A stretch of DNA of 64,000 nt from an uncultured Chitinophagaceae bacterium (lineage in GTDB: Bacteria > Bacteroidota > Ignavibacteria > UBA10030 > UBA8401). Location of the stretch: contig CAYPEM010000019.1 of NCBI GenBank assembly GCA_964409765.1, positions 1,429-65,428 on the forward strand, read 5' to 3'. Positions 38,421-58,375 of the stretch are shown here, in pieces (position 1 is the stretch's first letter; each line of letters begins with the position of its first letter). Position numbers and translations under genes: made by a program. Under the pieces are notes generated by a model. That model searched no databases, was not told where the DNA came from, and saw only the letters and a list, made by a program, of their open reading frames with translations.

Positions 38421-39743
38421 TTAATGTTCGTGTTCTCCTTCATTCGTCAGCATAGCCATAAGATAGAAAGAGCCGTTAACTACAACTTTTGCATCATGTG
38501 GTAATTCTTCGAGAGGAACTATTTCCGTAAATCCGGAGTCAGATACTCCTTTCTTAATCTGTATTCTATTAAATGAAAATTTGTTTTCTGGATGTCCATT
38601 TGAATCATTATGTTGCTCAGATTCTGAATGGTTATGTTCCTTGTGTTCGTCAGGTTTTTCGCCTTCCTGATGTTGATGATTTTTCTCTTCATCAGAATGT
38701 TCATGATTTTCATTCTCAGATTGAATAAAAATGTAATCATTTCCACCAAAACTTGCAATAGCAGATGAAGAAACAGAAAGTACACTATTGTTGCCAACGT
38801 TGATATTTGCAATTACGCTCATGCCTTCAATCAATCCCGATTTTTCACTCGTTAGCGAAGCATGTACAGGAATTGACTTGCTTTCTCCTTGAAATGCAGA
38901 ACCAATCGAAAATATCTTCGCATCGTAATGCTTCCCTGGCAAATTAGTCAGAAGAACATCAACGGTTTGTCCAATTTTTACTTTTGGTAAATCCTGTTCA
39001 AATACAAATAAATCAAGATGGAGTTGAGAATTGTCCACAACATCCATTAAATCCTTTGACGGCTCAACAGTGCTTCCTATATTAATTTCAATATTTGCGA
39101 TGTTTCCGGAAATGGGCGATTTAATATTAATAAATGAAGAAATATTTTCAGCTGTGAGCGCTGCAGTATTAATATTCAACAAAGTCAATTGTTGTTTCAA
39201 TGCATTCAGGGTCGCTTTAAGCGTTTGATAATTTGATGTTACCTGCTGAAATGACTTTTGAGAAGCAACATTTTTTTCTGATAATTCCTTCTGACGATTA
39301 TAATCTGCTTCGGCAAAAATGATTTGACTTTGAGCCTCCAAATATTCACGCTGCATTCTTATAAATTCCTGATTTGCAATCGTAGCAACCGTTTGACCTT
39401 TCTGTACATGCTCGCCTTCCATTACTAAAATGCTATTAACCGTACCACCGATAATTGCAGTAATGTTTGCCTTGTTGGTAGGTGGCACTTTTAAAAAACC
39501 TGTCGCTTTAAGAGCAGTTGATAGATTTTTCATCTCAACATCTCCAAGTTGAATGTTCAGTTGTTTAAATTGGGCAGCATCAATTTCAACAGATGATGTT
39601 TCTTCGTGATGTTCATGTTCCTCTTCACCTTTAGGAATATCATTGTTTTTTTTGTCGCTGCACGAAACAGCAAAGACTGTGACAATAAAAAGGACAATAG
39701 TTTGTAATCGCCCTGACATATATTTTGAATTTCTCATTTCCAT
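38421..39743 (-). CDS. czcB: RND efflux membrane-fusion protein (CzcB/HlyD family) with His-rich metal-binding segments
   Basis: Lipobox AVSC. His/Glu-rich stretches EEHEHHEETS and NENHEHSDEEKNHQHQEGEKPDEHKEHNHSESEQHNDSNGHPE, plus C-terminal NEGEHEH. Biotinyl-lipoyl/beta-barrel MFP layout. Confidence 0.75.
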   Translation of the reverse strand: MEMRNSKYMSGRLQTIVLFIVTVFAVSCSDKKNNDIPKGEEEHEHHEETSSVEIDAAQFKQLNIQLGDVEMKNLSTALKATGFLKVPPTNKANITAIIGGTVNSILVMEGEHVQKGQTVATIANQEFIRMQREYLEAQSQIIFAEADYNRQKELSEKNVASQKSFQQVTSNYQTLKATLNALKQQLTLLNINTAALTAENISSFINIKSPISGNIANIEINIGSTVEPSKDLMDVVDNSQLHLDLFVFEQDLPKVKIGQTVDVLLTNLPGKHYDAKIFSIGSAFQGESKSIPVHASLTSEKSGLIEGMSVIANINVGNNSVLSVSSSAIASFGGNDYIFIQSENENHEHSDEEKNHQHQEGEKPDEHKEHNHSESEQHNDSNGHPENKFSFNRIQIKKGVSDSGFTEIVPLEELPHDAKVVVNGSFYLMAMLTNEGEHEH

Positions 39744-39751
39744 TTTTTTGT

Positions 39752-44125: not shown

Positions 44126-44228
44126 TTTGGATATAAATAATTGAAGTTTGATGCCGGAAATACCGGCATAAATAAATTCAGCAGTTATATAAAATTTAAC
44201 TGCAACTAAAGAAAATCAGGAAAAGCTG

Positions 44229-44540
44229 TTAAGAAATTCGTGGCGGCTGCCAGAAATCATACGGACCGGAATTCGGAACGTGTGGTTGATAAAAAGTAAA
44301 ACTAACACCAGCGTAAAATTGAGGACATGAATAAGATGTTGTTCCAATGATAACAACAAATCCCTGGCAACATGAACAGATACAAAATGGTGTACAGCAA
44401 TCAGACAATGGTTCGGCATCATCACTACAAGCAGATGAAATGCTTGTCGATGACACAACTGCTTCTGCATGAGCATCATTACAAGGCATGACGCTTATGA
44501 GGCATACATAAAAAGCTAATATAAAGGTGAAAAATCGCAT
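44229..44540 (-). CDS. Small secreted Cys-rich protein at the head of the czc operon (possible periplasmic metal-binding protein)
   Basis: Signal peptide MRFFTFILAFYVCLISVMPCNDAHA. Cys cluster CSDDAEPLSDCCTPFCICSCCQG. Confidence 0.4.
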   Translation of the reverse strand: MRFFTFILAFYVCLISVMPCNDAHAEAVVSSTSISSACSDDAEPLSDCCTPFCICSCCQGFVVIIGTTSYSCPQFYAGVSFTFYQPHVPNSGPYDFWQPPRIS

Positions 44541-45099: not shown

Positions 45100-45897
45100 A
45101 TGGGTCAAAGAAGCCAGGTATTCATCTATTGTATCAATCCAGTTAACGGATTAAAAGAGCAATTCAAATCATTAAAGAAGTACGGTAAAGATAAAAATGA
45201 GCTGGAGCTTCTAAAATCCAAGATTGAGAAATATGAACAGGCTTTTGGAACTAAACAGCACACGGTGATAAGCTATCATCACCAGTGGCTATATGGAAGA
45301 GCATCACTCTTGGCCAGTGCGCATATAATTGAATTTAATAAATTTTGTGAGAAAGAATCGAATCCGTTGAAAACACAAACTAATATTTCAGGGGATGAAT
45401 ATCTGAGCTTCCTTACTAATCTTCTTGGAATATTCAATAGTAAACTCGCTAAAACTATTGGGAGATTTGGTATTGAACACTTCCGGTTACTGAACTTCAT
45501 TGACCCTGATATGCGAACGGATTGCACTCGTGGTGACAACAATGATGGGATATTCGTTATCGATTGCGTGAATGACTCATACTGCTTCACGTCTGTAGGG
45601 AATGGAGATGCCACTATTTCACAACTTTCCCCTATGGTTCCTGTGACTGCCGGTCAATATGTTCGGCTTTACTATCCTGAACAACAAAGTGACAGTAACA
45701 CTGCAAATGTTCCGGATGCTATTGAAGAACAGGAAGCAAACTTCACAAATAATCGCAGAATGAACAAACTGTTCATAAAACCTTTCAACGATTATAGATT
45801 AATGACTAACTCTGAATTGAAAAAACTTTTTCCTGCATCGTTTCAAACTCAAACACCGGAATCTAATCCGGTCCAGTCAAATAATAACCAAATGTGA
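45100..45897 (+). CDS. Hypothetical protein (defense/mobile islet)
   Basis: ORF track; no recognisable motif. AT-rich gene downstream of an A-tract-rich spacer. Confidence 0.4.
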   Translation: MGQRSQVFIYCINPVNGLKEQFKSLKKYGKDKNELELLKSKIEKYEQAFGTKQHTVISYHHQWLYGRASLLASAHIIEFNKFCEKESNPLKTQTNISGDEYLSFLTNLLGIFNSKLAKTIGRFGIEHFRLLNFIDPDMRTDCTRGDNNDGIFVIDCVNDSYCFTSVGNGDATISQLSPMVPVTAGQYVRLYYPEQQSDSNTANVPDAIEEQEANFTNNRRMNKLFIKPFNDYRLMTNSELKKLFPASFQTQTPESNPVQSNNNQM

Positions 45898-46179
45898 TTG
45901 CCAACATCAACTAATCAATCGACAATGGAAAAGAAAAAAACAAAAGCAGATATCGTTTACAGCTTATGCGAAGCAGTTGCAGACATCGCTTACATAGCTG
46001 GCTACAAACATCACTATTCAGGAGACTCACGGGGAGACATGGCCAGTTACATATCATGGGCTCAGGAGTTCGAGAAGAAATGGAAAGGCAAGGAATGGGG
46101 TGCCGATGACACGGCTGATGATTACATGGATGAGATAACAAAATTTGCAGAATCAAAAATCCAATTGAGAAATGGATAA
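45898..46179 (+). CDS. Hypothetical small protein
   Basis: ORF track. The start abuts the stop of the upstream gene. Confidence 0.35.
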   Translation: MPTSTNQSTMEKKKTKADIVYSLCEAVADIAYIAGYKHHYSGDSRGDMASYISWAQEFEKKWKGKEWGADDTADDYMDEITKFAESKIQLRNG

Positions 46180-46540
46180 ACACGTAAAGGAGTCCTCTCT
46201 CTTGCGGAAATCGCTGTTGGGAATACGAGTAACGCCATTTACAACTCCACCACTATTTCAAATTCTGGATTGGAATGTTTTCGATGCAGGAGTTGTCCAG
46301 CTTCTTCCACCGGACGACCGGATGAGAAACAAGAATTTCCAGATTGAAAGAGGCGAGAATGAAAAAATCCTTGTCAGAATGTTTTTGTCGAGTGATAAAT
46401 CAACTATTGAACGGACTAAGTATTTCTATCTTTTGAAAAATAGCGATGAAGAATGCACGTTATATATCGTCCTCGCACTTTTGGCAAGAGTGCAGTACAA
46501 AATAAGTTCGGACCATGAGCTTCTCCCCTTTGGCTTCTGA
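46172..46540 (+). CDS. Hypothetical small protein
   Basis: ORF track. 8-bp overlap with the upstream gene. Followed by the hairpin gtttcacttccctggaagtgaaac. Confidence 0.35.
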   Translation: MDKHVKESSLLRKSLLGIRVTPFTTPPLFQILDWNVFDAGVVQLLPPDDRMRNKNFQIERGENEKILVRMFLSSDKSTIERTKYFYLLKNSDEECTLYIVLALLARVQYKISSDHELLPFGF

Positions 46541-46666
46541 CAAGTTTCACTTCCCTGGAAGTGAAACAACATAGTTAATAACACTGAAATACAGTGAGTA
46601 ATGAAGATTTATAATTTCATAGGTTCAGAAATAGTGGTATTAAATCGAAAATGAAACTTAAATATC

Positions 46667-47242
46667 ATGGCAAAAAAAAATCAACGCACCGTATGTACAG
46701 GCATGGAATGGTCGGACTTTTTATTTGTGGTCGAGACATTAAAAAGAAAGCAGGAGTATAAGTTTATGCTCCTTATTGCAGCCGGAGTTTTTCTTGGGCT
46801 TCGTGCAAGTGATATCCTTCAACTGCAATGGGATTCCCTTCTTAATGAGGAAACATTCTCATTGAAGGAAAAGAAAACTGGTAAGAGCCGTTTGGTTACT
46901 GTAAATCCGGCACTGAAAGAGGTGGCACAAATTGCTGCAGAGAATATACGTCTGCCGGGTATACCATTTATTGCCACCAACAGAAAAGGCAAACCTATCT
47001 CTATACAATACTTCAATCGAAAACTTCATTTCATTTTCAGTGAATGTAATGTTGCGGCAGGTAACGGCAGCACCCATACACTTCGCAAAACTTTCGGTAA
47101 GCGCATATTTTTATTAAATAACAAGTCTGAGAATAGCTTGATACTATTGAGCAAGGTCTTTAATCATAGCAGTACTGCTATGACACGTGAGTACCTCGGA
47201 TATACTCAATCGGACATTAATCAAATTTTCTTAAGTCTTTGA
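46667..47242 (+). CDS. Tyrosine recombinase/integrase, catalytic domain only (191 aa; no N-terminal core-binding domain)
   Basis: Catalytic residues in order: GLRASD (R), KTGK (K), HTLRKTF (HxxR), NHSS (H), REYLGYT (Y). Confidence 0.65.
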   Translation: MAKKNQRTVCTGMEWSDFLFVVETLKRKQEYKFMLLIAAGVFLGLRASDILQLQWDSLLNEETFSLKEKKTGKSRLVTVNPALKEVAQIAAENIRLPGIPFIATNRKGKPISIQYFNRKLHFIFSECNVAAGNGSTHTLRKTFGKRIFLLNNKSENSLILLSKVFNHSSTAMTREYLGYTQSDINQIFLSL

Positions 47243-47243
47243 G

Positions 47244-47690
47244 ATGAAAACAAAATTCAGTCTGATTTTAGTATTTACATCATTTTATTTTGCTCATGGA
47301 CAAAATGAAAAAGTCGATTTCTCTAATCCTGCGTTAATAAATGGAAGCTCGTGGGGAGCAGTCTTTCAACGATTCTATAAGAATGGAGACTTCGACTCGA
47401 TGATGAAATTAACGTCTGATGAGTCGCTCCGGAAATTCGGCAGAGATACTATTCGCAATTATTATGAGCGAATGGATTTTGGATACAAACTCAAATTGAA
47501 ATCCTGGACAAGAACTAAAAATCACTTCTCCCTCAATTACGAAGCAGATATACTTGCGACCAGAGTTATAATTAGAATGGAGCTTGAGTCTGTCAGCGGA
47601 AGTGCAAAAAGCGACAGTGCAAAAAGTGACAGTGTTAAAATTATTTTACCAGATAATTTCAAAACTAAAAAGTACTTTCTCTACCAATGA
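47244..47690 (+). CDS. Hypothetical secreted protein
   Basis: Signal peptide MKTKFSLILVFTSFYFAHGQ. Internal SAKSDSAKSDS repeat. Confidence 0.4.
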   Translation: MKTKFSLILVFTSFYFAHGQNEKVDFSNPALINGSSWGAVFQRFYKNGDFDSMMKLTSDESLRKFGRDTIRNYYERMDFGYKLKLKSWTRTKNHFSLNYEADILATRVIIRMELESVSGSAKSDSAKSDSVKIILPDNFKTKKYFLYQ

Positions 47691-48073
47691 AGATTTTAAG
47701 CCTGGCAAGTAAAAAGTTGAACTTGATGTTTGGTTCGGAGCATGAATGCCGGGAACAAATATTCAAGGAATATTACTTGCTGCACTGGTATAAAGTAATA
47801 CGAAATTCACCCGGACTTACATTAAAGCAGACAGAGGAGTTTTGTCGTGATTGTAATAAGTTTGACATACAGGTATTAGGTTTCGAAACCTCCTATGAAA
47901 GTCGTCATGGATTAAACACATACTGCTTTGAGGAATACGATGATGTTTACCAAGATGAATGGTGGTATGCTGCCTTTCATGACCTGCATTTAAACGGCAT
48001 CACTGATTCAATCATTCCCTACATCCACATTCCTCAGGAAACGCTTGATAACTATCTCCCTGATGCTAAGTGA
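47687..48073 (+). CDS. Hypothetical protein
   Basis: ORF track. 4-bp overlap with the upstream gene. Confidence 0.35.
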   Translation: MKILSLASKKLNLMFGSEHECREQIFKEYYLLHWYKVIRNSPGLTLKQTEEFCRDCNKFDIQVLGFETSYESRHGLNTYCFEEYDDVYQDEWWYAAFHDLHLNGITDSIIPYIHIPQETLDNYLPDAK

Positions 48074-48707
48074 GAGCAGGACCGAACGCTATTATTGTAA
48101 GGATGAAATTGGCAAGGACTTATTCTATATCGAGTTAGTATTTGATGATGAGATGCAATGGGCGTACATGAATTCATCCCTCGATTATGATTTTAAGGAG
48201 AATAAACTCATCGAGGAATTACACCGTAGAATTACCGATTACAATCTGAACCCATCATTCAGAGAAAAGTGGATTGAAGAATTGTTTTCTGTTATCCGGT
48301 CTCTCCCCGGCATCGAGAAATATTATTTCCCTCCGGAATTCCTGGACAAAACCGGCAGGCATGTTCCGGAGTACTCTGCGGTTTTGAAAAACCTTATCCA
48401 GCATAAAGACTTTCCGGATTACACAGTTTTCTCCCCAAACGAAAACGCATATTATTTTGAGTATTCTCTTTCATTTTTGGTCACCAAACTTGCTGAAGAT
48501 GGAGGTAAAGAAATAGATAAAATACTCTTCGAAAAACTGATTAAAAATGACATCACTTTGACTACTGAATATGTTGAATGGATGTCGGATAATTCGGAGT
48601 TTTTTCATGTATTTTTAGGGGATGAAAAAACTCAGTACGACTGCTTCGTTATGATGCAGGAGAATGAGATAAAATTATTTTTTGTGCGAGAGATAGTTTC
48701 AACCTGA
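48045..48707 (+). CDS. Hypothetical protein
   Basis: ORF track. Overlaps the upstream gene, so translational coupling is plausible. Confidence 0.35.
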   Translation: MITISLMLSESRTERYYCKDEIGKDLFYIELVFDDEMQWAYMNSSLDYDFKENKLIEELHRRITDYNLNPSFREKWIEELFSVIRSLPGIEKYYFPPEFLDKTGRHVPEYSAVLKNLIQHKDFPDYTVFSPNENAYYFEYSLSFLVTKLAEDGGKEIDKILFEKLIKNDITLTTEYVEWMSDNSEFFHVFLGDEKTQYDCFVMMQENEIKLFFVREIVST

Positions 48708-48746
48708 TTTTGTTTCCTTTCGACTATTTATAGTTGGAATCGTTGG

Positions 48747-49202
48747 TTGACTTTTTGGATGGTCCATAAAGTAGAAAATACGGTCCACATAAGAAGTATG
48801 TCATACGCATGCACACAAGCGAAGTGCAACAATTTTGGCCATCTCCCACCTCGTGAAGCGCTCATTTCTCTCTATAATTGCTACAAGTATTCTCTTGTTG
48901 AAAATGCTGAGTGGCGAGAAATACCTGGATTTCCTGGCTATGAAATTAGCTCCGCTGGGCAGGTTCGAAATCTTAAAAGTTACGGAGGTAAGCCACGAGT
49001 TTTAATTCCAACCTTAAGGTTTAATAAATACTTCTACGTAACACTTACTTCAAATGAAAAAAAACGAATCGGAATAGCGATTGACCGCTTGATGGGAATT
49101 GCTTTTAAAGATATGCAGTTTAAGGAACTAAGAAAAGTGATTCATATCGATGATTATCGATACAATAACCAAATTGTTAATCTAAGATTTATTACCTGGT
49201 AA
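48747..49202 (+). CDS. NUMOD4-motif protein with a degenerate HNH-like segment (homing-endonuclease-related)
   Basis: ENAEWREIPGFPGYEISSAGQVRNLKSYGG matches the NUMOD4 consensus. This is followed by YFYVTLTSNEKKRIGIAIDRLMGIAF, which resembles an HNH_3 core but has Asp where the catalytic His is expected. Confidence 0.5.
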   Translation: MTFWMVHKVENTVHIRSMSYACTQAKCNNFGHLPPREALISLYNCYKYSLVENAEWREIPGFPGYEISSAGQVRNLKSYGGKPRVLIPTLRFNKYFYVTLTSNEKKRIGIAIDRLMGIAFKDMQFKELRKVIHIDDYRYNNQIVNLRFITW

Positions 49203-49365: not shown

Positions 49366-50886
49366 ATGGCCATGAACAAAGAAGCAATCGCATCTCTAAA
49401 TAAAGAAGAAACGGCACCTAATCAAATAATGCCAATTAGGGACACGATATTTATTGGACACGCTAACCCGGAAGACAATGAATTTACTCTTTGGCTTCGG
49501 TCGAAATTAATTAACGAAGGTTATAAGGTTGAATGCGATTTGACATTTCTCCTTGGAGGAGAGAATGATTACTGGAAATCTCTTCAAGAATTATTAGAGA
49601 GCGGAACAATCAAATATTTACTTGTTTACAGTAAAAACACTTTTCTAAAACAAGGAGTTATTGATGAATGGGAGCAAGCAAAAGCAGTTGGCTCAGACAC
49701 CGGAATTCAAGACTTCAGAATAGTGTGCAAAATTGATGATGTTAGTTTTTCATCACGCATTGGACTTAACGTGATGAACCAAATAAGGTTTGACCGTTCC
49801 TGGAGCATAGGCTTAAAGCAAGTTCTAAGGAAGCTACGAAGAGACCAGGTGCCACGAGGCGCTAAGAATAATTATTCCGTTGATGATTGGTTCAAAAATC
49901 GATATACAACTGAGTATAATTTGAAAAAAAAGAACGAATCATATTATTCCAACTGGTTTGAGTTACCAGAGTTGCCAGAGACATTATTTATTCATGAGTA
50001 CGATACGCCCGCCCAAGCAAAATTAATAGCTAATGAGATATCGAGTTATCCTGCATTTGCACATGATAAATACTTAGTCACTTTTTTAGAAAATGTCCCT
50101 ACTTCCGGCAAAGAAAAAATCGATGAGCTAAATGGAGCTACAAAATTAATTGATATCGACATTGTGGCAAGAAACAAGCAATGTATACCTACACGATTAT
50201 ATAAAGATAATCATGATAGCTATCCATTCCCAGGAAATGTTGATTTAAAAAAGTTCATGGTTCGACTTTTAAGGGACGCATTCTTTAAATTTCTTAATTT
50301 GAAAAATGTTCCATTTCATGAGATGTCCAACAAGCTTCGCTGCTTTTACTATAGAGAAGGACAAATTGAAAATAATAAAGTTTCATACCTCTATCGAGGA
50401 AATTGGAGTAGACCAAAACAAATTTTGGGAGATTACTTTGAGCATACATGGCATTATGGTATAAGTGTTAAACCCATATTGCGTCCGGTGTTACGTTTTG
50501 CAATTAAGGGTCACCTATTATTTTCAGATGATGGAGAGAATATTTGGGAAAAGAAAAATGAACTTGCTTCCGCCAGGCGTAGCAAAGGCAAAGGATTTTA
50601 TAATGCAGATTGGAGAAACCTAATGTTAGCGTTCATGCATAGTATTGCTGATGATGAAGGCAACATATCAATGGCCCTCTCCGATATTTTTACCGTTACA
50701 ATAAGTGCAAGCCCTATAATTTTTCATTCAACATATGGATATGTTGAACCAACTTCAAATGCACGACTGGTTCCAGTGGATTCAGAGTTTGAGTCATTTA
50801 TGGAAGAGGAAGAAATGTATGATGCAGAAGAAATAGAAGATGCAGAAGAAAATAATGAAACTAACGAAAATGATATTGAATTATGA
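49366..50886 (+). CDS. TIR-APAZ protein (SPARTA-type partner of a short pAgo). It has an N-terminal TIR domain, an APAZ region and an unusually long acidic C-terminal tail.
   Basis: N-terminal IFIGHANPEDNEFTLWLRSKL...KYLLVYSKNTFLKQGVIDEWEQA is TIR-like, with a candidate catalytic Glu in DEWE. 506 aa. Ends with EEEEMYDAEEIEDAEENNETNENDIEL. The stop overlaps the start of the downstream pAgo gene by 4 bp. Confidence 0.7.
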   Translation: MAMNKEAIASLNKEETAPNQIMPIRDTIFIGHANPEDNEFTLWLRSKLINEGYKVECDLTFLLGGENDYWKSLQELLESGTIKYLLVYSKNTFLKQGVIDEWEQAKAVGSDTGIQDFRIVCKIDDVSFSSRIGLNVMNQIRFDRSWSIGLKQVLRKLRRDQVPRGAKNNYSVDDWFKNRYTTEYNLKKKNESYYSNWFELPELPETLFIHEYDTPAQAKLIANEISSYPAFAHDKYLVTFLENVPTSGKEKIDELNGATKLIDIDIVARNKQCIPTRLYKDNHDSYPFPGNVDLKKFMVRLLRDAFFKFLNLKNVPFHEMSNKLRCFYYREGQIENNKVSYLYRGNWSRPKQILGDYFEHTWHYGISVKPILRPVLRFAIKGHLLFSDDGENIWEKKNELASARRSKGKGFYNADWRNLMLAFMHSIADDEGNISMALSDIFTVTISASPIIFHSTYGYVEPTSNARLVPVDSEFESFMEEEEMYDAEEIEDAEENNETNENDIEL

Positions 50887-52397
50887 AAATGCAACATAAA
50901 ATATACTATTTAAAGGAGCCAGAATTAAAATTTGCATATAATCAAAGCGTAGTTGACCCAAGGGATGGCTTAACGCTTTTTGGTCCTTATGATAAAGGGA
51001 AAGTATCCGACCTATCGGTAGGAATCATTGGCACCGCAGATGGAATTGTTAAGTGTAAAAATTGGTTAACTAAAATTCAAAGACCTGTTTTTCATCCCAC
51101 TCATGATATTGCCAAGCCTTTCTTTCCTGGATTTGATTCTGCATTTTTCGTTTCGATGAACATGGAATCAATACCAACTTTGCAAATTGATGACTCGACA
51201 CTGGATAGTCTATATAAGTATTCAGATAGTCATATACGAGTGGCCGAAATTGTTGATTTGTATATTAACAAACTACATGAGTACCTAAAGGAAAACGAAA
51301 AACAACCTCGATTATGGTTCGTAATAATTCCGAATAAGGTTTATACATTATGCCGTCCCAAAAGTATCGTTCCCAAAAAAGGTTCTATTAAAGTTGGCTT
51401 CTCTGATGACTACTCTCGTAAAGTAGTAAGCATGTTTGAAAATGAAGAAGCTGGTAGATGGAGGAAAGCATACGACTATGAAAATCATTTTCATAATCAG
51501 CTTAAAATTAAATTACTAAATCAACGCATTCTAACGCAAATCATCAGAGAGGACACAATAGCCTTTGAGGATAAACCCAACGTTACTCCGAAAAAATTAA
51601 AAACCTATCAAAATCAAGTCACGGCAATAACCTGGAATCTTGCAAATTCAATTTATTATAAAGCGGGCGGCATACCGTGGAAGTTGGCCAATGTTCGTAA
51701 AAACGTTTGCTATATTGGTCTTACTTTCAAACGAGACGAAACGCATCATGATACGAGAATTGCATGTTGCGCTGCACAAATGTTTCTTGATACCGGTGAT
51801 GGGGTTGTCTTTCGAGGTCGAGTTGGACCTTATTATAATCCAACAACAAAAGAATATCATCTGACAGAAGAAAAAGCATATGAGCTATTATCAAAAGTGC
51901 TAACATCATTTAAAAAAGACAATGAATCTGAAATTCCAGAGAAAATTTTCATCCACGGAAAAACTTTTTTTAATGATGAAGAGTGGGCTGGCTTTGAAAG
52001 AGCTGCCAATGGTAAATGCCATGTTTATGGGGTTCGCATAACACATGAGAAAGATTTTAAATTATTCCGGGAAGGAGAGTATCCAATATATAGAGGAGCT
52101 TTTTATAAAAGACATAATAAGGCAGCATTTCTATGGACGAAAGGCTTTATGCCAAGGATTCAATCTGTACTTGGCCTTGAAACCCCGAATCCTTTACATG
52201 TTGAAATAATTCGAGGAGATGAAGACATTCAGACTGTTTGCAAGGATATAATGATGCTGACAAAGCTTAATTATAATGCATGCATTTATTGTGATGGAAC
52301 TCCCGTAACACTAAAATTTGCGGACTTAATTGGAGAGATTCTCACTGCAGGTCCGAATGAAGATTTAGAAATTCTTCCGTTCATGTATTACATCTAA
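50883..52397 (+). CDS. Short prokaryotic Argonaute (MID-PIWI only), predicted catalytically inactive
   Basis: 504 aa. Translationally coupled to the TIR-APAZ gene. PIWI-like region ..ITWNLANSIYYKAGGIPWKL..VCYIGLTFKRDETHHD.. lacks the GxDV(S/T)H and RDG catalytic aspartates. This call is from the architecture and was not verified by a search. Confidence 0.65.
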   Translation: MKMQHKIYYLKEPELKFAYNQSVVDPRDGLTLFGPYDKGKVSDLSVGIIGTADGIVKCKNWLTKIQRPVFHPTHDIAKPFFPGFDSAFFVSMNMESIPTLQIDDSTLDSLYKYSDSHIRVAEIVDLYINKLHEYLKENEKQPRLWFVIIPNKVYTLCRPKSIVPKKGSIKVGFSDDYSRKVVSMFENEEAGRWRKAYDYENHFHNQLKIKLLNQRILTQIIREDTIAFEDKPNVTPKKLKTYQNQVTAITWNLANSIYYKAGGIPWKLANVRKNVCYIGLTFKRDETHHDTRIACCAAQMFLDTGDGVVFRGRVGPYYNPTTKEYHLTEEKAYELLSKVLTSFKKDNESEIPEKIFIHGKTFFNDEEWAGFERAANGKCHVYGVRITHEKDFKLFREGEYPIYRGAFYKRHNKAAFLWTKGFMPRIQSVLGLETPNPLHVEIIRGDEDIQTVCKDIMMLTKLNYNACIYCDGTPVTLKFADLIGEILTAGPNEDLEILPFMYYI

Positions 52398-55339
52398 TTT
52401 ACCTGATTAGTGCCTTGGACTATTTTAATTTCTTCCGGAGTTAATTCATAAAGTTGATATACAATCTGATTTATTTTCTCCTCACAAAAATCAATCTTAC
52501 TTTGAATTTGAATTAATTTGTTTTCGAGTTTTAATTCTTCCTTCTCTTTATTCAATTCCTGCAATTGTTTAACAAGATTCGCAAGTCCAGATTCTTGCTT
52601 TCCGTTTATTGGAAATGGCAATTCATTCAAGTATACTGCTTTTACTTGTGGTATCACTCTTTGGCCACCTTGAATTAAAGTATCATATAGAAATTGAAAT
52701 AGTTTTGAATGGAAAATCGCTAAAACTACATTTACATTAATTCCTGATTTGGTCTTAAAGAGATACAGTGAATCTGTAGCATAAAATCCAAATTCATCAT
52801 ATGCAACCGTAAGTTTTTTTGTAGTTGTAAGTCCAATGAATTTATTTGAAGAAAATATTTCAGGATTTCTTGGTCTATGTAATGCAAACCATGGGTGTTT
52901 GCCCTCGGCAACTTCACGACATGTAATAAATTTTTTAAATTCAGATAAATGTTTTTTAGCATTTGGGTAATCGTTGATATTATCTTTGGATGTGAGATAA
53001 AGGATTACATCATTGGTATGTATTGTGTTGAATCTTTGTATATGCTTGCCTAATACAAGTGGCCGTAATATTTTCTTCTCTATTTTTTTCTCTGCAGCTT
53101 CATTTGCATTCAACACAAACGCCTTTGAATAGTCAGGGCTAATTCCTCTTTGTATTTCACCGTCTATTATATCTCTGAATGTTGCAAACCTCCCTTGCAA
53201 CTTCTTCAACAAAGAAACATTCGAAGTACTGAAAGTAAAGTAAGTGAATAATCCATCCTTTTTTACTAATTCAGTCCACTGAGATTTATCTGTTGATTGA
53301 ATACTATTTAGATTTCTTTCCTTTTCTTCCGGACTTACATCTCTTAGGTCCGCTATATACAAAGGTGAACTCTCTGAAGGAGATTTTGTAAATACAAGAA
53401 TTGTAGAAGTGTTTAAAACTTTAGGCCCAAAAACCTTTTCGCCAAGATTTATTACAATTTCAAGATTAAATTTTTCAGCTATCAATTTACGTAAAAGTTG
53501 CACATCGCTTTGGTTCAAGAATGTACTTGGTATTATCATTCCAAAGGAGCCATCTTTTTTCAGAAGTTCAAGAGAATGATTAATAAAGTACATGTAAGAA
53601 TCAATCATCCGAACAATGATAGCATTATGTCTGCTCCTTAAATAATCAAGAGACTCATCCGATAAATCAGCACCCCACGGTGGATTTCCAACTACAATAT
53701 CAAAACCACCTTGTGAAAAAATATTTGGAAAACCAGTTTTCCAATTAAATGGTTTTATTTTTTTATCCTCGCCAAAATCAAATTTCCCCTCATAGAAATC
53801 CACATCAATCAAACTATTCCCACTCTTAATATTATTTTCTAACGATGGCAAAACTCGTTCATTCCACAAACTCATCTGCGAAGCAATACTTGCTTCAGTT
53901 TCGCCTTCCATGCATTTCAGAAGTAAACTGAGCTTCGTTACTTCCACAGCATTTACATCGATGTCTACTCCGTAGATGTTATTCTGGAGAATACGTTTTT
54001 TCTCAGCCGTAGTAAGGTGACCCTCCGGGGTTAATGGATTATCTTTCTTTCCTTTCGATGCCGGACCATTCCTGGTGTAATAGTCTTTATGGTAATCGAG
54101 CAGATATTGATATGCACCCAGGAGAAAACTCCCAGAGCCGCATGCGATATCGGCAATTGTTATTTCGGAAATTTCTTTCGGAGTTTTACCTTCGATGAGT
54201 TTGCCGACTGTGTTTTTTACAATATAATCTACTATGTACTGTGGAGTGTAGTATACTCCGCCTGCTTTACGAACTTCCGGCTTCTCTTCAATCTTCGCCC
54301 TATGAGCGCTATCGATGCGAATTTGTTTCCCAAGGAACTGTTCATAAGCATTGCCCAGGATTTCGACAGACAGGACCGAAAACTCGTAAGGTGATTCCGG
54401 ATAATAAAGTTCATTGATAATAGTCTTGATAACCTTGTTATCGACTTTGATATTTTCCGAAATCTTATCCTTCTTGAAATCAAAAATACCGGAGTTGTAT
54501 TTCTCATCAGCCTTATGAAAAATATCGAAGAGATTTTTATAATAATCCCCCGAACTAATCGAATGTTTGAGATTGCCATATGGTTCAACACTTCTGTCCT
54601 CAGCAATTCGCAGAAAGATTAGCCGGTCGATAGTTTGTTGGACCACAAAATTGATTTCATCCTCATCCAGGTTTTTGTTATTCCAGCTAATGCTTGTGGC
54701 CAAATAGGTCCGCCATTCATCGAGCGACTGCAGGAATTCTTTATCGACTGTTGTTGTTCCTTTTTTATTTGCTGTTGATGCAACAAACTTGTCGAAACTG
54801 CCTTTCAGTACTTTCTCTTTGCTGAATGTGTCGTATATGAATTCAAACTCTTTAAGGTAATCACGGAAGGTGATGTATCGTATCCTGGCCACAGACGCTT
54901 TATCTGCCGGCAAAGGTTTCTTTGTACAATCATATACTGCAAACTCTTCAAAGTCTGTTATAATGGAAATGGGGAGCTTCGCAGACCATCCGTAACGTCT
55001 TATTTGATATGCCGGAATGATTTCATCCTTTACTACAATATGTGGCTTCTTTGCTTCCACAAAAAATAGGCGCTTGCCTCCCGATAACCGGAACGAATAA
55101 TCCGGAGCCTTGATTGCACCACTAATCCTTATTTTGTCTTCATGGATAACTTCTCGATAAGCTTCTGCGAACCCCTGAGCGTTGTTCATATCCCAGCCCA
55201 ATGCCGAGAAAAACGGGTCGATGAAATCCTTCCGTGTTAAAGTCTCATTATACCCGGACCGTTTGTAAGACTCGTATTGTTCTTCAAATCTGTCAATCAG
55301 GTCACTAATTATTTCTCTTGCTGAATCCTTAGTTGTCAT
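52394..55339 (-). CDS. Type IIG (MmeI/Eco57I-like) restriction-modification enzyme: N-terminal PD-(D/E)xK nuclease, gamma-class N6-adenine methyltransferase, C-terminal target-recognition domain
   Basis: Nuclease motif ..APDYSF...LFFVEAKKP. MTase motif I DIACGSGSFLLGAY and motif IV VVGNPPWG. 981 aa. Its 3' end overlaps the pAgo 3' end by 4 bp, tail-to-tail. Confidence 0.75.
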   Translation of the reverse strand: MTTKDSAREIISDLIDRFEEQYESYKRSGYNETLTRKDFIDPFFSALGWDMNNAQGFAEAYREVIHEDKIRISGAIKAPDYSFRLSGGKRLFFVEAKKPHIVVKDEIIPAYQIRRYGWSAKLPISIITDFEEFAVYDCTKKPLPADKASVARIRYITFRDYLKEFEFIYDTFSKEKVLKGSFDKFVASTANKKGTTTVDKEFLQSLDEWRTYLATSISWNNKNLDEDEINFVVQQTIDRLIFLRIAEDRSVEPYGNLKHSISSGDYYKNLFDIFHKADEKYNSGIFDFKKDKISENIKVDNKVIKTIINELYYPESPYEFSVLSVEILGNAYEQFLGKQIRIDSAHRAKIEEKPEVRKAGGVYYTPQYIVDYIVKNTVGKLIEGKTPKEISEITIADIACGSGSFLLGAYQYLLDYHKDYYTRNGPASKGKKDNPLTPEGHLTTAEKKRILQNNIYGVDIDVNAVEVTKLSLLLKCMEGETEASIASQMSLWNERVLPSLENNIKSGNSLIDVDFYEGKFDFGEDKKIKPFNWKTGFPNIFSQGGFDIVVGNPPWGADLSDESLDYLRSRHNAIIVRMIDSYMYFINHSLELLKKDGSFGMIIPSTFLNQSDVQLLRKLIAEKFNLEIVINLGEKVFGPKVLNTSTILVFTKSPSESSPLYIADLRDVSPEEKERNLNSIQSTDKSQWTELVKKDGLFTYFTFSTSNVSLLKKLQGRFATFRDIIDGEIQRGISPDYSKAFVLNANEAAEKKIEKKILRPLVLGKHIQRFNTIHTNDVILYLTSKDNINDYPNAKKHLSEFKKFITCREVAEGKHPWFALHRPRNPEIFSSNKFIGLTTTKKLTVAYDEFGFYATDSLYLFKTKSGINVNVVLAIFHSKLFQFLYDTLIQGGQRVIPQVKAVYLNELPFPINGKQESGLANLVKQLQELNKEKEELKLENKLIQIQSKIDFCEEKINQIVYQLYELTPEEIKIVQGTNQVN

Positions 55340-55478
55340 TCAAATGGGCGGAATTTTGACAAATATAAGGTATTAAGGGTACAGAAATCAGGGTGAATTT
55401 TGGGTAAGTATCTGCCTGCAGATTGCATTCAAACGAGCCGTAAACATGGTAACTTTACTCTCGTTAACCGGACCCATA

Positions 55479-57218
55479 ATGAAAAGCATTATTACCACGA
55501 TTACCATATGCATGTATGGCATTGCACTTAGTGCCCAAACCGAAACGGTGACCATCGATGCCGACAGCACACGACAAACTATCGAAGGATTTGGAGCTAC
55601 CACCCTACCACTTGTGTATGGCTCCCAGGACAATCTCGGCATCTATCGTGCAGATGCATTGGCCAAAGCCTACAACGATGTTAAACTGACCATGGGTAAC
55701 ATTTCAGCCGGTAATATTGAAATGGATTCCAGCCTGGTCTTCGGTACATCAACTAATGATGACAACGACCCTTTCAATTATGACTGGTCTGGATTCAATT
55801 TTAAGTATTCCAAAAACGATATTCAATATCTAATCAATCCTGCGGCTCAATATGGGTTCAATAATTTCATGATAGAAAGTAAAATTAATCACCGTTGGGG
55901 CACGACCTGGATGCCGGCTCTTCGAAGCAGTAACTATAATCAGTATCTCGATGAATGTGCGGAGTATGTTCTGGCCGTTCATAAATACTGGCGAGACAGC
56001 CTGGGAATCGTACAGCCTTATGCGATGATTTTTAATGAGCCACTAACGGGCAATGGAGAATTGAATGGCGGAACGGTCCAGGAAGTAGTAGATATCATAA
56101 AGCGTGTTGGTGACCGGTTCCGTGCCGAAGGTTTCGACAGCATTATGATTATTGCTCCGAATGAAGAGACGCTTACTCAAACTCTTACCGATGTAACAGC
56201 TATTCTTGCCGACAGCGCTGCAAGAAAATACATCGGTGCGATTGGATATCATACATATCCATATGGTTCACCTTATGCAGAAGCTTCGAATATCCTGGCA
56301 CAATCCGGAACCGGAAATCCGGATGCAAATGAAATTAACAAACGAACACAGTTAAAAGCAATGTGTGATTCATTCAACATTCCGCTTTGGTTTACAGAAG
56401 TATGCTGCAGTTCGTTACCATTGTTTTCGATGGACCTGCTTCGTGGAAGAGCAATTCACATTCATGATGAGATGTTGTATGCCGGAGTATCAGCTTACTT
56501 CGGAATGAATACCCTGTGGGATTACCAATCGCAACTTGACCATTTTGGCAGTGGGGCCGGATTTAACAACGAAGCGGAGATAGTTCAGATAGACAGCAAT
56601 GGTGTTTCACGAATTACATCGACAGGCTATGCGATTGGCCACTACGCAAGGTGGTTACAAAAAGGTGCGAAGAGAGTTGAATCGACAAGCTCAGATTCAC
56701 TGGTCCAGATAAGTTCATTCAAGGATGAGTCTTCAAACAAGTTTACAGTTATTGCAATTAATAACAATTCTGTAAGTAAAACTGTTCAGTTTGATTTCTC
56801 CGGAATTAATCTTATCGATTCGGTTCATGGTGAACAATCATATGATTCAACACGATGGGAGTCCATTCCACCGGTGACTCCGCTATCTAATCAATTTTCA
56901 TATACTCTTCTTCCAAATAGTGTTACTTCATTTGGTGGAACATTCTCAATACCAACTGGAATAAATCATATTGACAGGAATAATTTCGTATCGGTTTCAC
57001 CAAATCCTGCAAACTCCGTAATTGAAATTAAGATTGCCGGTACATCAAAATCAGAAACAAATCACTATGTAGTAGAAATCTTCAATACAATTGGTGAAAA
57101 AGTCTTACAATCACAAAACGAATCTATAATTAATGTTTCAAATTTGGTTAGCGGAATGTATTTCCTAAAAATTAGACTGGAAAATAAATTTCTTACTAAA
57201 ATATTTGTTAAGCAGTAA
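55479..57218 (+). CDS. Clan GH-A glycoside hydrolase (GH30-like) with T9SS C-terminal sorting domain
   Basis: Signal peptide MKSIITTITICMYGIALSAQ (internal Met of the ORF 55446..57218). Candidate acid/base MIFNEPL and nucleophile WFTEV. C-terminal VSPNPANSVIEIK...GMYFLKI...IFVKQ. Confidence 0.6.
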   Translation: MKSIITTITICMYGIALSAQTETVTIDADSTRQTIEGFGATTLPLVYGSQDNLGIYRADALAKAYNDVKLTMGNISAGNIEMDSSLVFGTSTNDDNDPFNYDWSGFNFKYSKNDIQYLINPAAQYGFNNFMIESKINHRWGTTWMPALRSSNYNQYLDECAEYVLAVHKYWRDSLGIVQPYAMIFNEPLTGNGELNGGTVQEVVDIIKRVGDRFRAEGFDSIMIIAPNEETLTQTLTDVTAILADSAARKYIGAIGYHTYPYGSPYAEASNILAQSGTGNPDANEINKRTQLKAMCDSFNIPLWFTEVCCSSLPLFSMDLLRGRAIHIHDEMLYAGVSAYFGMNTLWDYQSQLDHFGSGAGFNNEAEIVQIDSNGVSRITSTGYAIGHYARWLQKGAKRVESTSSDSLVQISSFKDESSNKFTVIAINNNSVSKTVQFDFSGINLIDSVHGEQSYDSTRWESIPPVTPLSNQFSYTLLPNSVTSFGGTFSIPTGINHIDRNNFVSVSPNPANSVIEIKIAGTSKSETNHYVVEIFNTIGEKVLQSQNESIINVSNLVSGMYFLKIRLENKFLTKIFVKQ

Positions 57219-57238
57219 AGTTATTAATGTAAACAAAC

Positions 57239-57739
57239 TCACATACCCGGCATCATTCCACAACCCATTTTCATTTTCTCAGGCTTTGCTTTCTTACCGT
57301 CATTGGACGCTGGTTTAATTATCAACTCCATACCACACTTAGGACATTTTCCTGGGATAGCTGACTGAATTTCCGGATGCATTGAACAAGTATAAATGAC
57401 TGAATTGTGCTGCGTAGTATCAATTACAACCTCCGGTTTATTCATCATACTTGAATTTCCATTTCCCATCTCGTTCATATCCATGCCGTGCATCATTCCG
57501 CAATCCATTTTCATTTGATGATTACTGCCTCCATCTGAATATGACTTCTGAATTAACTGCATTCCGCATTTTGGACATTCTCCTGGACCGACAGCCTTTA
57601 TTTCGGGATGCATGGAACATGTATAATAAACCGAATCGATTTGCTTTACTGGAATATTCGAATTAACATTTTGCGCAGAAGTGGCAAGTGAAGCACAAAT
57701 AGCAAAAACAAGAAAAGGGATAATTAATTTTATGTGCAT
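57239..57739 (-). CDS. Periplasmic protein with two heavy-metal-binding domains (HMBD; YxCxMHP...CPKCGM)
   Basis: Signal peptide. Two copies of YTCSMHPEI...G.CPKCGM.LI.K. A Met/His-rich linker MKMDCGMMHGMDMNEMGNGNSSMM. Confidence 0.65.
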   Translation of the reverse strand: MHIKLIIPFLVFAICASLATSAQNVNSNIPVKQIDSVYYTCSMHPEIKAVGPGECPKCGMQLIQKSYSDGGSNHQMKMDCGMMHGMDMNEMGNGNSSMMNKPEVVIDTTQHNSVIYTCSMHPEIQSAIPGKCPKCGMELIIKPASNDGKKAKPEKMKMGCGMMPGM

Positions 57740-57786
57740 TTTAAAATTTTCTGTCTTCTGTTATTTAAAATTAAATAGAATTGTAT

Positions 57787-58200
57787 CTATACTCTATGCA
57801 GAGTCATTGTCCGGGTATGTTGTGGATTACGATTTGAGAAATAACAATAGTTAGCATCACGGCTTGTAATATCCCAATCATCATTACATTCCTCTAAAAT
57901 CGCATTTTTATCACAACCTATAATACTAAAATGAACCATCGAATGATTATCATGAATGAAGTTCCAACGACAATTGTATAAATGAGAATTATTCCGAATA
58001 ATCATTGCGCCATTCACATTACAATCAAAAGTATAACCTGCAAACTGGTTTGCTATTTCGACATCATCTTTGATAAATGAGCTTATTCGCCATGCTCCAG
58101 GTGTCGGTTCCACTGTTAAAGACAGGTAGGTAGATTCTTTCTTACAAGAATTAATCACAACCATAAAAGGAATTAGGACAAGGAATAAGAGCGTTTTCAT
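57787..58200 (-). CDS. Cys/His-rich lipoprotein, paralog of CDS 32194..32616
   Basis: Lipobox VINSC. Shares GAWRISSFIKDDVEIANQFAGYTFDCNVNG...VHFSIIGCD...ECNDDWD...CYF with the paralog. Confidence 0.55.
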   Translation of the reverse strand: MKTLLFLVLIPFMVVINSCKKESTYLSLTVEPTPGAWRISSFIKDDVEIANQFAGYTFDCNVNGAMIIRNNSHLYNCRWNFIHDNHSMVHFSIIGCDKNAILEECNDDWDITSRDANYCYFSNRNPQHTRTMTLHRV

Positions 58201-58375
58201 TGTTTCATACTTTCAGAACGATTCAAACTCATGTAAGCCAATTAATGGCGAAAACAATTGCTAAAGCTCCATAATAAATACTTGCAATGAAATGATATCT
58301 ATCATAGTTATAAGTACGAATTCATATCTAATAACAGAAAGATGAAAATTTATAGTTACTGAAAATCTCGTAGGT

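What the first reader, a model, noticed from the sequence alone, without database searches (positions are those of the whole stretch)
49366..52397. TIR-APAZ plus short Argonaute operon (SPARTA-type) with an unusual poly-acidic tail on the TIR-APAZ protein
Two translationally coupled genes (4-bp overlap) encode a 506-aa protein and a 504-aa protein. The first begins with a TIR-like segment (IFIGHANPEDNEF...KYLLVYSKNTFLKQGVIDEWEQA). The second has MID/PIWI-like layout, but the PIWI catalytic aspartate positions appear substituted (IGLTF where GxDV(S/T)H is expected, and no RDG). This is the architecture of SPARTA systems, in which guide-dependent target recognition by an inactive short pAgo activates TIR NADase and causes abortive infection. 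Such systems are known from Bacteroidetes, but they are rare. This copy also ends in a roughly 30-residue Glu/Asp-rich tail (EEEEMYDAEEIEDAEENNETNENDIEL). I do not recall such a tail as part of characterised TIR-APAZ proteins. It could be an autoinhibitory or nucleic-acid-mimic extension.
Basis: partly seen in the sequence, partly recalled or inferred. Interest (0 to 1): 0.85.

Follow-up and report, generated by a model that had tools for sequence, protein, structure and literature searches.

The report
Ordinary SPARTA defence operon, known tail
This is an intact but ordinary copy of the known bacterial SPARTA defence system (a TIR-APAZ protein plus a short, non-cutting Argonaute), and its acidic tail is the already characterised self-inhibiting plug of such systems, not a new feature.

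Summary
Two genes overlapping by 4 bp (49366-50886 and 50883-52397, + strand) encode a 506-aa TIR-APAZ protein and a 504-aa short Argonaute. Both match SPARTA models and solved SPARTA structures strongly: PADLOC E = 1e-111 and 5e-189, PDB chains E = 2e-52 and 7e-134. The TIR catalytic Glu (E101), the MID 5'-phosphate pocket (H204, K208, Q219, K260, R222, T225) and the C-terminal Ile504 are all kept. Both metal-binding Asp residues of the PIWI DEDX tetrad are lost.

The claimed novelty is not. An acidic TIR-APAZ C-terminal tail is a published, experimentally tested, conserved SPARTA feature. It plugs the guide/target channel as a nucleic-acid mimic and is expelled when target binds (Bab-, Crt- and MapSPARTA). 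Across 120 homologues and 79 genome loci, every full-length homologue has such a tail. Median length is 31-35 aa and median Asp/Glu content 37-38%. This tail is 49 aa with 39% Asp/Glu, so its composition is typical and its length is near the 95th percentile.

Minor clade-level differences exist: a possible ~22-aa disordered N-terminal extension, and variant TIR interface residues. This is a new member of a known kind, of low interest. It sits in a small defence island beside a type IIG restriction-modification gene.

The parts
49366..50886 (+). TIR-APAZ gene (506 aa from M1; alternative starts M3 at 49372 and M22 at 49429)
   Evidence: ORF. PADLOC Aga_TIR-PNTD1-PNTD2 E = 1e-111. phmmer to BabSPARTA 8qlo_A 2.2e-52, MapSPARTA 8fex_A 4e-51 and CrtSPARTA 8ifk_A 1.5e-48. 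AF2 model with Foldseek: the top 35 PDB hits are all SPARTA TIR-APAZ chains.
49366..49437 (+). Possible N-terminal extension (residues 1-24), predicted disordered. It would be absent if translation starts at M22.
   Evidence: pLDDT is below 50 for residues 1-21. Extensions of 21-23 aa, not conserved in sequence, occur in the five closest homologues, against a family median of 2 aa. A TAA lies directly upstream of M1.
49438..49845 (+). TIR NADase domain (about residues 25-160), including the catalytic Glu E101 (codon 49666-49668) and the BB-loop LGGENDYW (residues 63-70)
   Evidence: Pfam TIR_2 28.3 bits against a cutoff of 28, residues 28-124. E101 aligns with MapSPARTA E77. That column is Glu in 200/200 and 80/80 family sequences.
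49918..50736 (+). APAZ domain (about residues 185-457), including the basic helix around residues 397-408 (KKNELASARRSKGK) that guides the tail into the channel in CrtSPARTA
   Evidence: Alignment to Bab/Map TIR-APAZ over the whole APAZ. A403 and R404 are invariant and K407 nearly invariant. Confident AF2 model with helix 397-408. Foldseek TM about 0.8 to APAZ-only chains. The role of the basic helix is from bioRxiv 10.1101/2023.07.12.548734.
50737..50883 (+). Acidic C-terminal tail (residues 458-506): a conserved GYxEPxxxxRLVPxD segment followed by a 35-aa Asp/Glu-rich stretch. This is the autoinhibitory plug.
   Evidence: 49 aa, 19 D/E, net charge -18. Family medians are 35 aa with 0.38 D/E and 31 aa with 0.37 D/E. 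pLDDT is below 50 for residues 464-506.
50809..50844 (+). In-frame 18-nt tandem repeat inside the tail (EEMYDA / EEIEDA), 15 of 18 nt identical
   Evidence: the repeat finder family D4. It could be a small duplication that lengthened the tail, or a chance match in GAA-rich sequence.
50883..52397 (+). Short pAgo gene (MID-PIWI only, 504 aa); its start codon overlaps the TIR-APAZ stop codon (ATGA)
   Evidence: PADLOC pAgo_I E = 5.3e-189, end to end. phmmer to CrtAgo 8ifk_B 8.4e-134, BabAgo 8qlo_B 1.3e-130 and MapAgo 8fex_B 1e-128, covering residues 6-504 against 3-507.
51492..51662 (+). MID 5'-phosphate / guide 5'-end pocket: H204, K208, Q219, R222, T225, K260
   Evidence: These equal MapAgo H207, K211, Q222, R225, T228 and K263 (PMC10355822), mapped through the alignment and checked. 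All are consensus residues in 78 family pAgos. The C-terminal Ile504 equals the metal-binding Ile507.
51723..52325 (+). PIWI positions that correspond to the DEDX tetrad: T281 (first Asp), E324/Y325 (Glu finger), G359/K360 (second Asp), D481 (fourth position)
   Evidence: TtAgo D478/E512/D546/D660 were verified in L002. BLASTP pairs D660 with D481, E = 0.004. hhalign of the family profile against TtAgo gives 66% probability, E = 5.6e-5, and pairs D546 with K360 and E512 with Y325. Family columns: 281 V/T/A, 359 G/A, 360 K/R.
52394..55339 (-). Neighbouring type IIG restriction-modification gene (981 aa), convergent with the pAgo gene, with overlapping stop codons (CTAA). It shares the island but is not part of SPARTA.
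   Evidence: PADLOC REase_MTase_IIG E = 2.4e-191 over residues 9-974. Pfam Eco57I, N6_Mtase, TaqI_C and HSDR_N. Junction sequence.

Best explanation
This is an intact SPARTA (short prokaryotic Argonaute / TIR-APAZ) abortive-infection operon from a Bacteroidota genome, and it most likely works like the characterised Map-, Crt- and BabSPARTA systems. The two translationally coupled proteins form a heterodimer. [quoted passage not shown] The pAgo loads a small 5'-phosphorylated RNA guide in its MID pocket. Pairing with complementary ssDNA from a highly transcribed, high-copy invader expels the tail. That drives pAgo-pAgo dimerisation and then TIR-mediated tetramerisation, which builds composite NADase sites around E101. 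NAD+ is depleted and the cell stops growing or dies. Shown here: the gene architecture, homology to SPARTA, conservation of the catalytic and guide-binding residues, loss of slicer residues, and the presence and typical composition of the tail. Inferred from homologues: complex formation, guide type, tail plugging, oligomerisation and NAD+ depletion.
For: Architecture and coupling. The pAgo gene lies directly downstream of the TIR-APAZ gene in 76 of 80 related loci. Family assignment: PADLOC 1e-111 and 5.3e-189, Pfam TIR_2 and Piwi, solved SPARTA chains 2.2e-52 and 6.7e-134, and Foldseek top 35 hits all SPARTA TIR-APAZ. Active-site Glu E101 is invariant. The MID pocket H204/K208/Q219/K260, the RNA-guide contacts R222/T225, and the C-terminal Ile504 are all conserved. 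There is no Asp at either metal-binding tetrad position. The tail is present, with 39% D/E and net charge -18. Its conserved root motif is kept (Y459 and P462 invariant, R467 nearly invariant), as is the conserved basic APAZ helix. The model predicts the tail to be flexible. Published mechanism of the tail: PMC10899771 and bioRxiv 10.1101/2023.07.12.548734.
Against: No functional data exist for this copy. Pfam scores are marginal: TIR_2 is 28.3 against a cutoff of 28, and Piwi is 25.7, below its cutoff of 28.9, although specialised models and PDB matches are overwhelming. The two TIR tetramer-interface arginines whose charge reversal kills MapSPARTA (R54E, R114E) are Glu78 and Val136 here, so the interface must differ in detail. 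Those columns vary across the whole family, however. One study found that deleting the Map tail had little effect on NADase activity in vitro (PMC10474274), so the strength of tail autoinhibition may differ between orthologues and assays. The mapping of the first tetrad Asp rests on motif reasoning, because hhalign placed it at K260 instead; neither candidate is Asp. No promoter or terminator signal rose above chance.
Confidence: 0.9

Rival explanations
1. It is a SPARTA system whose regulation is tuned differently from the characterised ones. The longer tail (49 aa), the ~22-aa N-terminal extension and the altered TIR interface (E78, V136, a BB-loop one residue longer) shared with its subclade would set a higher activation threshold or a different oligomer geometry.
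For: Tail length is near the 95th percentile in two surveys. The five closest homologues share 45-54-aa tails and 21-23-aa N-terminal extensions. In L003 and L004 about 40 codons are open upstream of the TIR start, against a median of 10. The interface residues differ from Map/Bab.
Against: Tail composition sits at the family median, and length varies continuously from 29 to 59 aa with no separate class. The N-terminal extension is not conserved in sequence, is predicted disordered, and for this gene may not be translated at all if M22 is the start. The 'variant' interface residues are the commonest states in the family: Glu at the R54 column in 93 of 200 sequences.
Confidence: 0.15
2. It is a decaying or non-functional remnant of a SPARTA operon carried passively in a degraded mobile island.
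For: The island contains what looks like a truncated tyrosine recombinase (191 aa, catalytic domain only) and several orphan ORFs. No att-like repeats were found.
Against: Both genes are full length and align end to end with functional orthologues, with no frameshifts or internal stops. All catalytic and ligand-binding residues tested are intact. The start/stop overlap that couples the two genes is preserved.
Confidence: 0.05
3. It belongs to a different short-pAgo class (SPARSA, SPARDA, SPARHA or SiAgo-like), or to an active long pAgo class.
For: These classes share the APAZ and MID-PIWI folds, and weaker PADLOC, PDB and Foldseek hits to them do appear.
Against: The effector domain is TIR, with no match to Sir2, DREN or HNH models. 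The best matches by tens to hundreds of orders of magnitude are SPARTA. The pAgo has no N or PAZ domains and lacks both catalytic Asp residues.
Confidence: 0.01

Closest known systems
BabSPARTA (Bacillales bacterium; PDB 8qlo/8qlp; Finocchio et al., NAR 2024, PMC10899771)
   Same: The two-gene architecture is the same. TIR-APAZ matches at E = 2.2e-52 and pAgo at 1.3e-130. An acidic C-terminal tail begins at the same alignment column (Bab 417 equals window G458). In Bab the tail forms a helix in the nucleic-acid cleft and inhibits activation. The basic APAZ helix and the catalytic Glu are conserved.
   Different: The window TIR-APAZ is 506 aa against 450. The extra length comes from a possible 22-24-aa N-terminal extension, roughly 9-10-aa internal APAZ insertions that are typical of its own clade, and a tail of 49 aa against about 34. 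Foldseek sequence identity is only 28%. The R54/R114 equivalents are E78/V136.
MapSPARTA (Maribacter polysiphoniae; PDB 8fex, 8i87 and others; the founding characterised system)
   Same: It is also from Bacteroidota. The MID pocket residues H207/K211/Q222/K263/R225/T228 and the terminal Ile507 are all matched. E77 equals E101. The Map tail is likewise acidic (...EEEAELSGFNQGEDIEELEELIEN), as visible in the alignment.
   Different: The BB-loop here is GGENDYW against DKG-VDFW in Map, one residue longer. The fourth tetrad position is Asp481 here, the family majority state (D in 53 of 78; Asn in CrtAgo and in 17 of 78). The pAgo dimer-interface residue K504 is Met501 here.
CrtSPARTA (Crenotalea thermophila; PDB 8ifk, 8isy; bioRxiv 10.1101/2023.07.12.548734)
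   Same: This is the best pAgo match (8.4e-134). The 'acidic C-tail as nucleic-acid mimic' was shown by deletion and by adding the peptide back. The basic entry helix is conserved.
   Different: It comes from a different subclade, and its tail is shorter than the window's.
Uncharacterised Bacteroidia MAG orthologues (L003 DASUFP010000086.1, L004 JAEUTI010000022.1; proteins P0002-P0006)
   Same: These are 58-69% identical. They have the same long tails (45-54 aa), the same N-terminal extension and the same TIR interface residues.
   Different: Their flanking genes differ: FloA/NfeD, a DUF4209 protein and a resolvase, rather than a type IIG R-M gene, an HNH-like gene and an integrase-like gene. 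The conserved mobile unit is therefore just the two-gene cassette.

Membership tests
SPARTA (short pAgo clade S2A with TIR-APAZ) | Operon with a TIR-APAZ gene immediately upstream of, and co-oriented with, a short pAgo gene | tested here: met
   The genes overlap by 4 bp, ATGA. The same arrangement occurs in 76 of 80 related loci.
SPARTA (short pAgo clade S2A with TIR-APAZ) | N-terminal TIR domain with the catalytic glutamate (MapSPARTA E77) | tested here: met
   Pfam TIR_2 at 28.3 bits against a cutoff of 28. E101 aligns to E77. The column is invariant in 200/200 and 80/80 sequences.
SPARTA (short pAgo clade S2A with TIR-APAZ) | APAZ domain fused to TIR, homologous to the APAZ of solved SPARTA complexes | tested here: met
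   The PADLOC TIR-PNTD1-PNTD2 model matches at E = 1e-111 over residues 25-486. phmmer to 8qlo_A, 8fex_A and 8ifk_A. Foldseek E = 1e-36, with TM about 0.8 on APAZ-only chains.
SPARTA (short pAgo clade S2A with TIR-APAZ) | The pAgo consists of MID and PIWI only (no N, L1 or PAZ) | tested here: met
   The 504-aa protein aligns over residues 6-504 to residues 3-507 of the 507-aa Crt, Bab and Map pAgos. PADLOC pAgo_I matches end to end.
SPARTA (short pAgo clade S2A with TIR-APAZ) | PIWI lacks the DEDX slicer tetrad | tested here: met
   Compared with TtAgo D478/E512/D546/D660: the first Asp maps to T281 by motif or K260 by hhalign; the third maps to K360 or G359; the Glu finger maps to Y325 with E324 adjacent; the fourth position D481 is retained. 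Both metal-binding Asp residues are absent under either alignment. The first Asp position rests on a low-confidence local alignment.
SPARTA (short pAgo clade S2A with TIR-APAZ) | MID pocket for a 5'-phosphorylated guide, with the C-terminal carboxylate/metal site and RNA-guide contacts | tested here: met
   H204, K208, Q219, K260, R222, T225 and Ile504 equal Map H207, K211, Q222, K263, R225, T228 and I507. All are family-consensus residues.
SPARTA (short pAgo clade S2A with TIR-APAZ) | Acidic C-terminal tail on TIR-APAZ (16-46 aa on average and 21-45% D/E in S2A/S2B), plus a basic APAZ helix | tested here: met
   The tail is 49 aa with 39% D/E. Family medians are 31-35 aa and 37-38% D/E. The basic helix KKNELASARRSKGK has invariant A403 and R404.
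SPARTA (short pAgo clade S2A with TIR-APAZ) | 1:1 heterodimer that tetramerises on guide-RNA/target-ssDNA binding and then hydrolyses NAD+, giving abortive infection | not testable with these tools
   This needs biochemistry and in vivo assays. Only single-chain structure prediction was available.

The most novel reading that the evidence does not exclude
The subclade containing this operon (window, P0002-P0006, L003, L004) may be a regulatory variant of SPARTA. It has an extra-long acidic tail, possibly lengthened by an in-frame 18-nt duplication. It has a disordered ~22-aa N-terminal extension on the TIR domain. It carries a charge-reversed TIR tetramer interface: Glu where MapSPARTA needs Arg54, and Val at the Arg114 position. 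Together these could change the activation threshold or the oligomer geometry.
Probability: 0.12. Interest if true: 0.3.

Novelty: new member of a known kind. Interest (0 to 1): 0.12.

Why it matters
It matters little beyond annotation. The finding adds one more intact, uncharacterised SPARTA orthologue from an uncultured Bacteroidota genome, sitting next to a type IIG restriction-modification gene in a small defence island. It shows that the acidic tail, its conserved root motif and the basic APAZ helix are present in every full-length homologue surveyed here, which is consistent with the published autoinhibition model. One point may be useful to specialists. The MapSPARTA tetramer-interface residues that are essential by mutagenesis (R54, R114) are not conserved across the family, and Glu is the commonest residue at the R54 column. 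The TIR-TIR tetramer interface therefore appears to co-vary between clades, so orthologues like this one would be natural test cases for interface plasticity. SPARTA orthologues are also of practical interest as nucleic-acid detection reagents.

Tried and rejected
1. A global hhalign of the SPARTA pAgo profile against TtAgo failed (probability 0.1%). A local alignment worked (66%, E = 5.6e-5), but it locally mis-paired the first catalytic Asp with the YYKAGG motif. I therefore report both candidate positions; neither is Asp.

2. Pairwise BLASTP against TtAgo aligned only the C-terminal PIWI segment, the fourth tetrad position.

3. I looked for island borders. No att-like direct repeats flank 44.5-55.4 kb. 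The only tRNA is far away, at 25252.

4. Sigma-70 promoter and terminator scans, and a Bacteroidetes-type TTTG...TAnnTTTG search, gave counts at chance level and nothing upstream of the operon. By eye there is a TATATTTG about 17 nt upstream of M1 (sequence), which is only a weak lead.

5. I tried to name the source organism. The exact proteins are in NCBI/Logan without names, and the genome is not among the GTDB species representatives. The best hits are 63% identical, from Bacteroidia MAGs.

6. I checked whether E78 (the R54 equivalent) signals an inactive TIR. Rejected: the column varies family-wide and Glu is its commonest residue.

7. PHROGs and Pfam scans of the upstream orphan ORFs hit only an integrase catalytic domain and an HNH/NUMOD4 endonuclease.

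8. NCBIfam has no model that hits either SPARTA protein.
Full report
**Observation**

The junction reads TTATGAAAATG, so the pAgo ATG overlaps the TIR-APAZ TGA in ATGA. The quoted peptide segments and the Glu/Asp-rich C-terminus are present. The start of the first gene is uncertain. A TAA lies directly upstream of M1. The public gene call for the identical protein (P0001, NCBI/Logan) starts at M3. M22 (MPIRDTIFIGH) would give the N-terminus seen in most homologues.

**What it is**

- The PADLOC models for class I short-pAgo systems hit both proteins. The TIR-APAZ model matches at E = 1e-111 over residues 25-486. The pAgo_I model matches at E = 5.3e-189, end to end.
- Pfam is marginal: TIR_2 scores 28.3 bits against a cutoff of 28, and Piwi scores 25.7 against 28.9. 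NCBIfam has no model for either protein.
- Against the PDB by sequence, TIR-APAZ matches the TIR-APAZ chains of BabSPARTA (8qlo_A, 2.2e-52), MapSPARTA (8fex_A, 4e-51) and CrtSPARTA (8ifk_A, 1.5e-48).
- The pAgo matches CrtAgo (8.4e-134), BabAgo (1.3e-130) and MapAgo (1e-128) over essentially its full length, residues 6-504 against 3-507. It therefore has MID and PIWI only.
- An AlphaFold2 model of TIR-APAZ has mean pLDDT 79.5, with confident TIR (residues 27-160) and APAZ (185-460) cores. In a Foldseek search of the PDB, its top 35 hits are all SPARTA TIR-APAZ chains, with E down to 9.8e-37. SPARHA, SPARSA and SPARDA APAZ proteins follow far behind.

**Residue-level checks**

*TIR domain.* The catalytic Glu (MapSPARTA E77; the E77A mutant is the standard dead control) is E101 here. 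That column is Glu in every family sequence examined: 80/80 and 200/200.

*MID pocket.* The MapAgo residues that bind the guide 5'-phosphate are H207, K211, Q222 and K263. Those that read the RNA guide are R225 and T228 (PMC10355822). The metal-binding C-terminal residue is Ile507 (PMC10474274). These correspond to H204, K208, Q219, K260, R222, T225 and I504 here. All are the consensus residues among 78 SPARTA-family pAgos.

*Slicer tetrad.* I fetched TtAgo from pTT27 (L002:22997-25054, minus strand; WP_011174533.1). This is the same accession a SPARTA paper used for its tetrad alignment. I verified D478, E512, D546 and D660 in it.
- BLASTP pairs D660 with window D481 (E = 0.004).
- A local profile-sequence alignment (hhalign, 66% probability, E = 5.6e-5) pairs D546 with K360 and E512 with Y325, with E324 adjacent.
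- The first Asp maps by motif to T281: VGFDAG in TtAgo against IGLTFK in the window. hhalign placed it at K260 instead.
- Under either mapping, both metal-binding Asp residues are absent.

**The tail**

This was the reason for the high first-stage score, and it does not hold up. Two structural studies describe the tail directly.
[quoted passage not shown] The tail 'is highly acidic'. [quoted passage not shown] Deleting the tail activates the NADase, a synthetic tail peptide re-inhibits it, the tail is called a nucleic-acid mimic, and it is conserved in 56 TIR-APAZ sequences (bioRxiv 10.1101/2023.07.12.548734).

I measured tails from the column that equals Bab residue 417 (window G458).
- Among 120 database homologues, the median tail is 35 aa (5th-95th percentile 29-48, maximum 59) with median Asp/Glu fraction 0.38. 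The window tail is 49 aa with 0.39 Asp/Glu and net charge -18.
- Among 79 TIR-APAZ genes from species-representative genomes across many phyla, the median is 31 aa, the 95th percentile 48, and the Asp/Glu fraction 0.37.

Composition is therefore exactly typical, and length is at the upper end of a continuous distribution. The tail's conserved root motif is present: GYxEPxxxxRLVPxD, with Y459 and P462 invariant and R467 nearly invariant. So is the basic APAZ helix that guides the tail in Crt: KKNELASARRSKGK, with A403 and R404 invariant. The model gives the tail pLDDT below 50 and draws it as a low-confidence helix over residues 471-497. That is compatible with a flexible segment that becomes helical when docked, as in Bab residues 423-436. 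Part of the extra length may come from an in-frame 18-nt tandem repeat at 50809-50844 (EEMYDA/EEIEDA, 15 of 18 nt identical). In GAA-rich sequence this could also be chance.

**Clade-level differences**

None of these changes the classification.
- The five closest homologues (58-69% identity) and two Bacteroidia MAG loci (L003, L004; 63%) share 45-54-aa tails. They also share a 21-23-aa N-terminal extension that is not conserved in sequence, against a family median of 2 aa. The extension is predicted disordered.
- The MapSPARTA TIR tetramer-interface residues R54 and R114, whose R-to-E mutations abolish activity, are E78 and V136 here. Those columns vary family-wide: at the R54 column E 93, R 57 and D 18 of 200; at the R114 column R 108, T 32 and V 26. 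This is normal clade variation, not a defect.
- The BB-loop is one residue longer than in Map: GGENDYW against DKG-VDFW.

**Context**

- The operon's conserved unit is just the two genes. 76 of 80 related loci have the pAgo directly downstream, while the flanks differ even in the closest relatives: FloA/NfeD, a DUF4209 protein and a resolvase in L003 and L004.
- Upstream of the operon in the window lie orphan ORFs, a 191-aa tyrosine-recombinase catalytic domain and an HNH/NUMOD4 endonuclease-like gene.
- Downstream, convergent and with overlapping stop codons, is a 981-aa type IIG restriction-modification gene (PADLOC E = 2.4e-191).
- This block of about 11 kb has lower GC than much of the window (0.34-0.38). 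It lies between heavy-metal efflux genes (an HlyD-like gene, an RND-OEP fusion and DUF6660) and a GH30-like protein with a type IX secretion (T9SS) sorting domain, an HMBD protein and a P-type ATPase.
- No att-like repeats or promoter/terminator signals above chance were found. The T9SS sorting domain and the nearest relatives point to Bacteroidota.

**Verdict**

This is an intact, canonical SPARTA orthologue and a new, uncharacterised member of a well-known kind. The tail itself is a known, conserved feature, so the claimed novelty disappears. The family is also less rare than suggested: one peptide motif found 331 relatives among 185,579 species genomes. Interest is low.

Noticed in passing
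window 52394-55339 (- strand): A 981-aa type IIG restriction-modification gene (Eco57I/MmeI-like, with an N-terminal HSDR_N nuclease region and a TaqI_C specificity domain). It is convergent with the pAgo gene, and their stop codons overlap (CTAA), leaving no intergenic terminator. Together with SPARTA it forms a small defence island.
   Followed up: partly
window 45100-49202 (+ strand): A run of eight co-oriented ORFs upstream of SPARTA, mostly without any family match. It includes a 191-aa tyrosine-recombinase catalytic domain lacking the usual N-terminal domain (46667-47242) and an HNH/NUMOD4 homing-endonuclease-like gene (48747-49202). This is possibly a degraded mobile element. No flanking att-like repeats were found.
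   Followed up: partly
window 38421-44540 and 55446-60418: The defence block lies inside what looks like a heavy-metal resistance neighbourhood. On one side are an HlyD/CusB-like gene, a 1457-aa RND transporter fused to an outer-membrane-factor (OEP) domain, and a Cys-rich DUF6660 protein. On the other are a GH30-like protein with a type IX secretion (T9SS) sorting domain, a protein with two HMBD heavy-metal-binding motifs, and a P-type ATPase.
   Followed up: partly
window 49597-49599 and 49771-49773 (TIR-APAZ E78 and V136): The residues equivalent to MapSPARTA R54 and R114 (the R54E and R114E mutants are dead) are Glu and Val here. Across 200 family sequences, Glu is the commonest residue at the R54 column (93, against 57 Arg). 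This suggests the TIR tetramer interface co-varies between SPARTA clades.
   Followed up: partly
window 50809-50844: An in-frame 18-nt tandem repeat (GAAGAAATGTATGATGCA / GAAGAAATAGAAGATGCA, encoding EEMYDA / EEIEDA) inside the acidic tail. It may be a small duplication contributing to the above-average tail length, or chance in low-complexity sequence.
   Followed up: no
window 49366-49437; also L003 9881-10000 and L004 1179-1298: The reading frame is open for 24-41 codons upstream of the canonical TIR start in this subclade only (family median about 10 open codons). The predicted N-terminal extensions of 21-23 aa are not conserved in sequence. Whether they are translated is unknown.
   Followed up: partly
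L003 13317-13763 and L004 4333-6273: In the two closest relatives, a DUF4209-containing protein lies immediately downstream of the SPARTA pAgo gene: full length at 646 aa in L004, and only a 148-aa fragment in L003. A resolvase gene is nearby in L003. No counterpart exists in the window.
   Followed up: no
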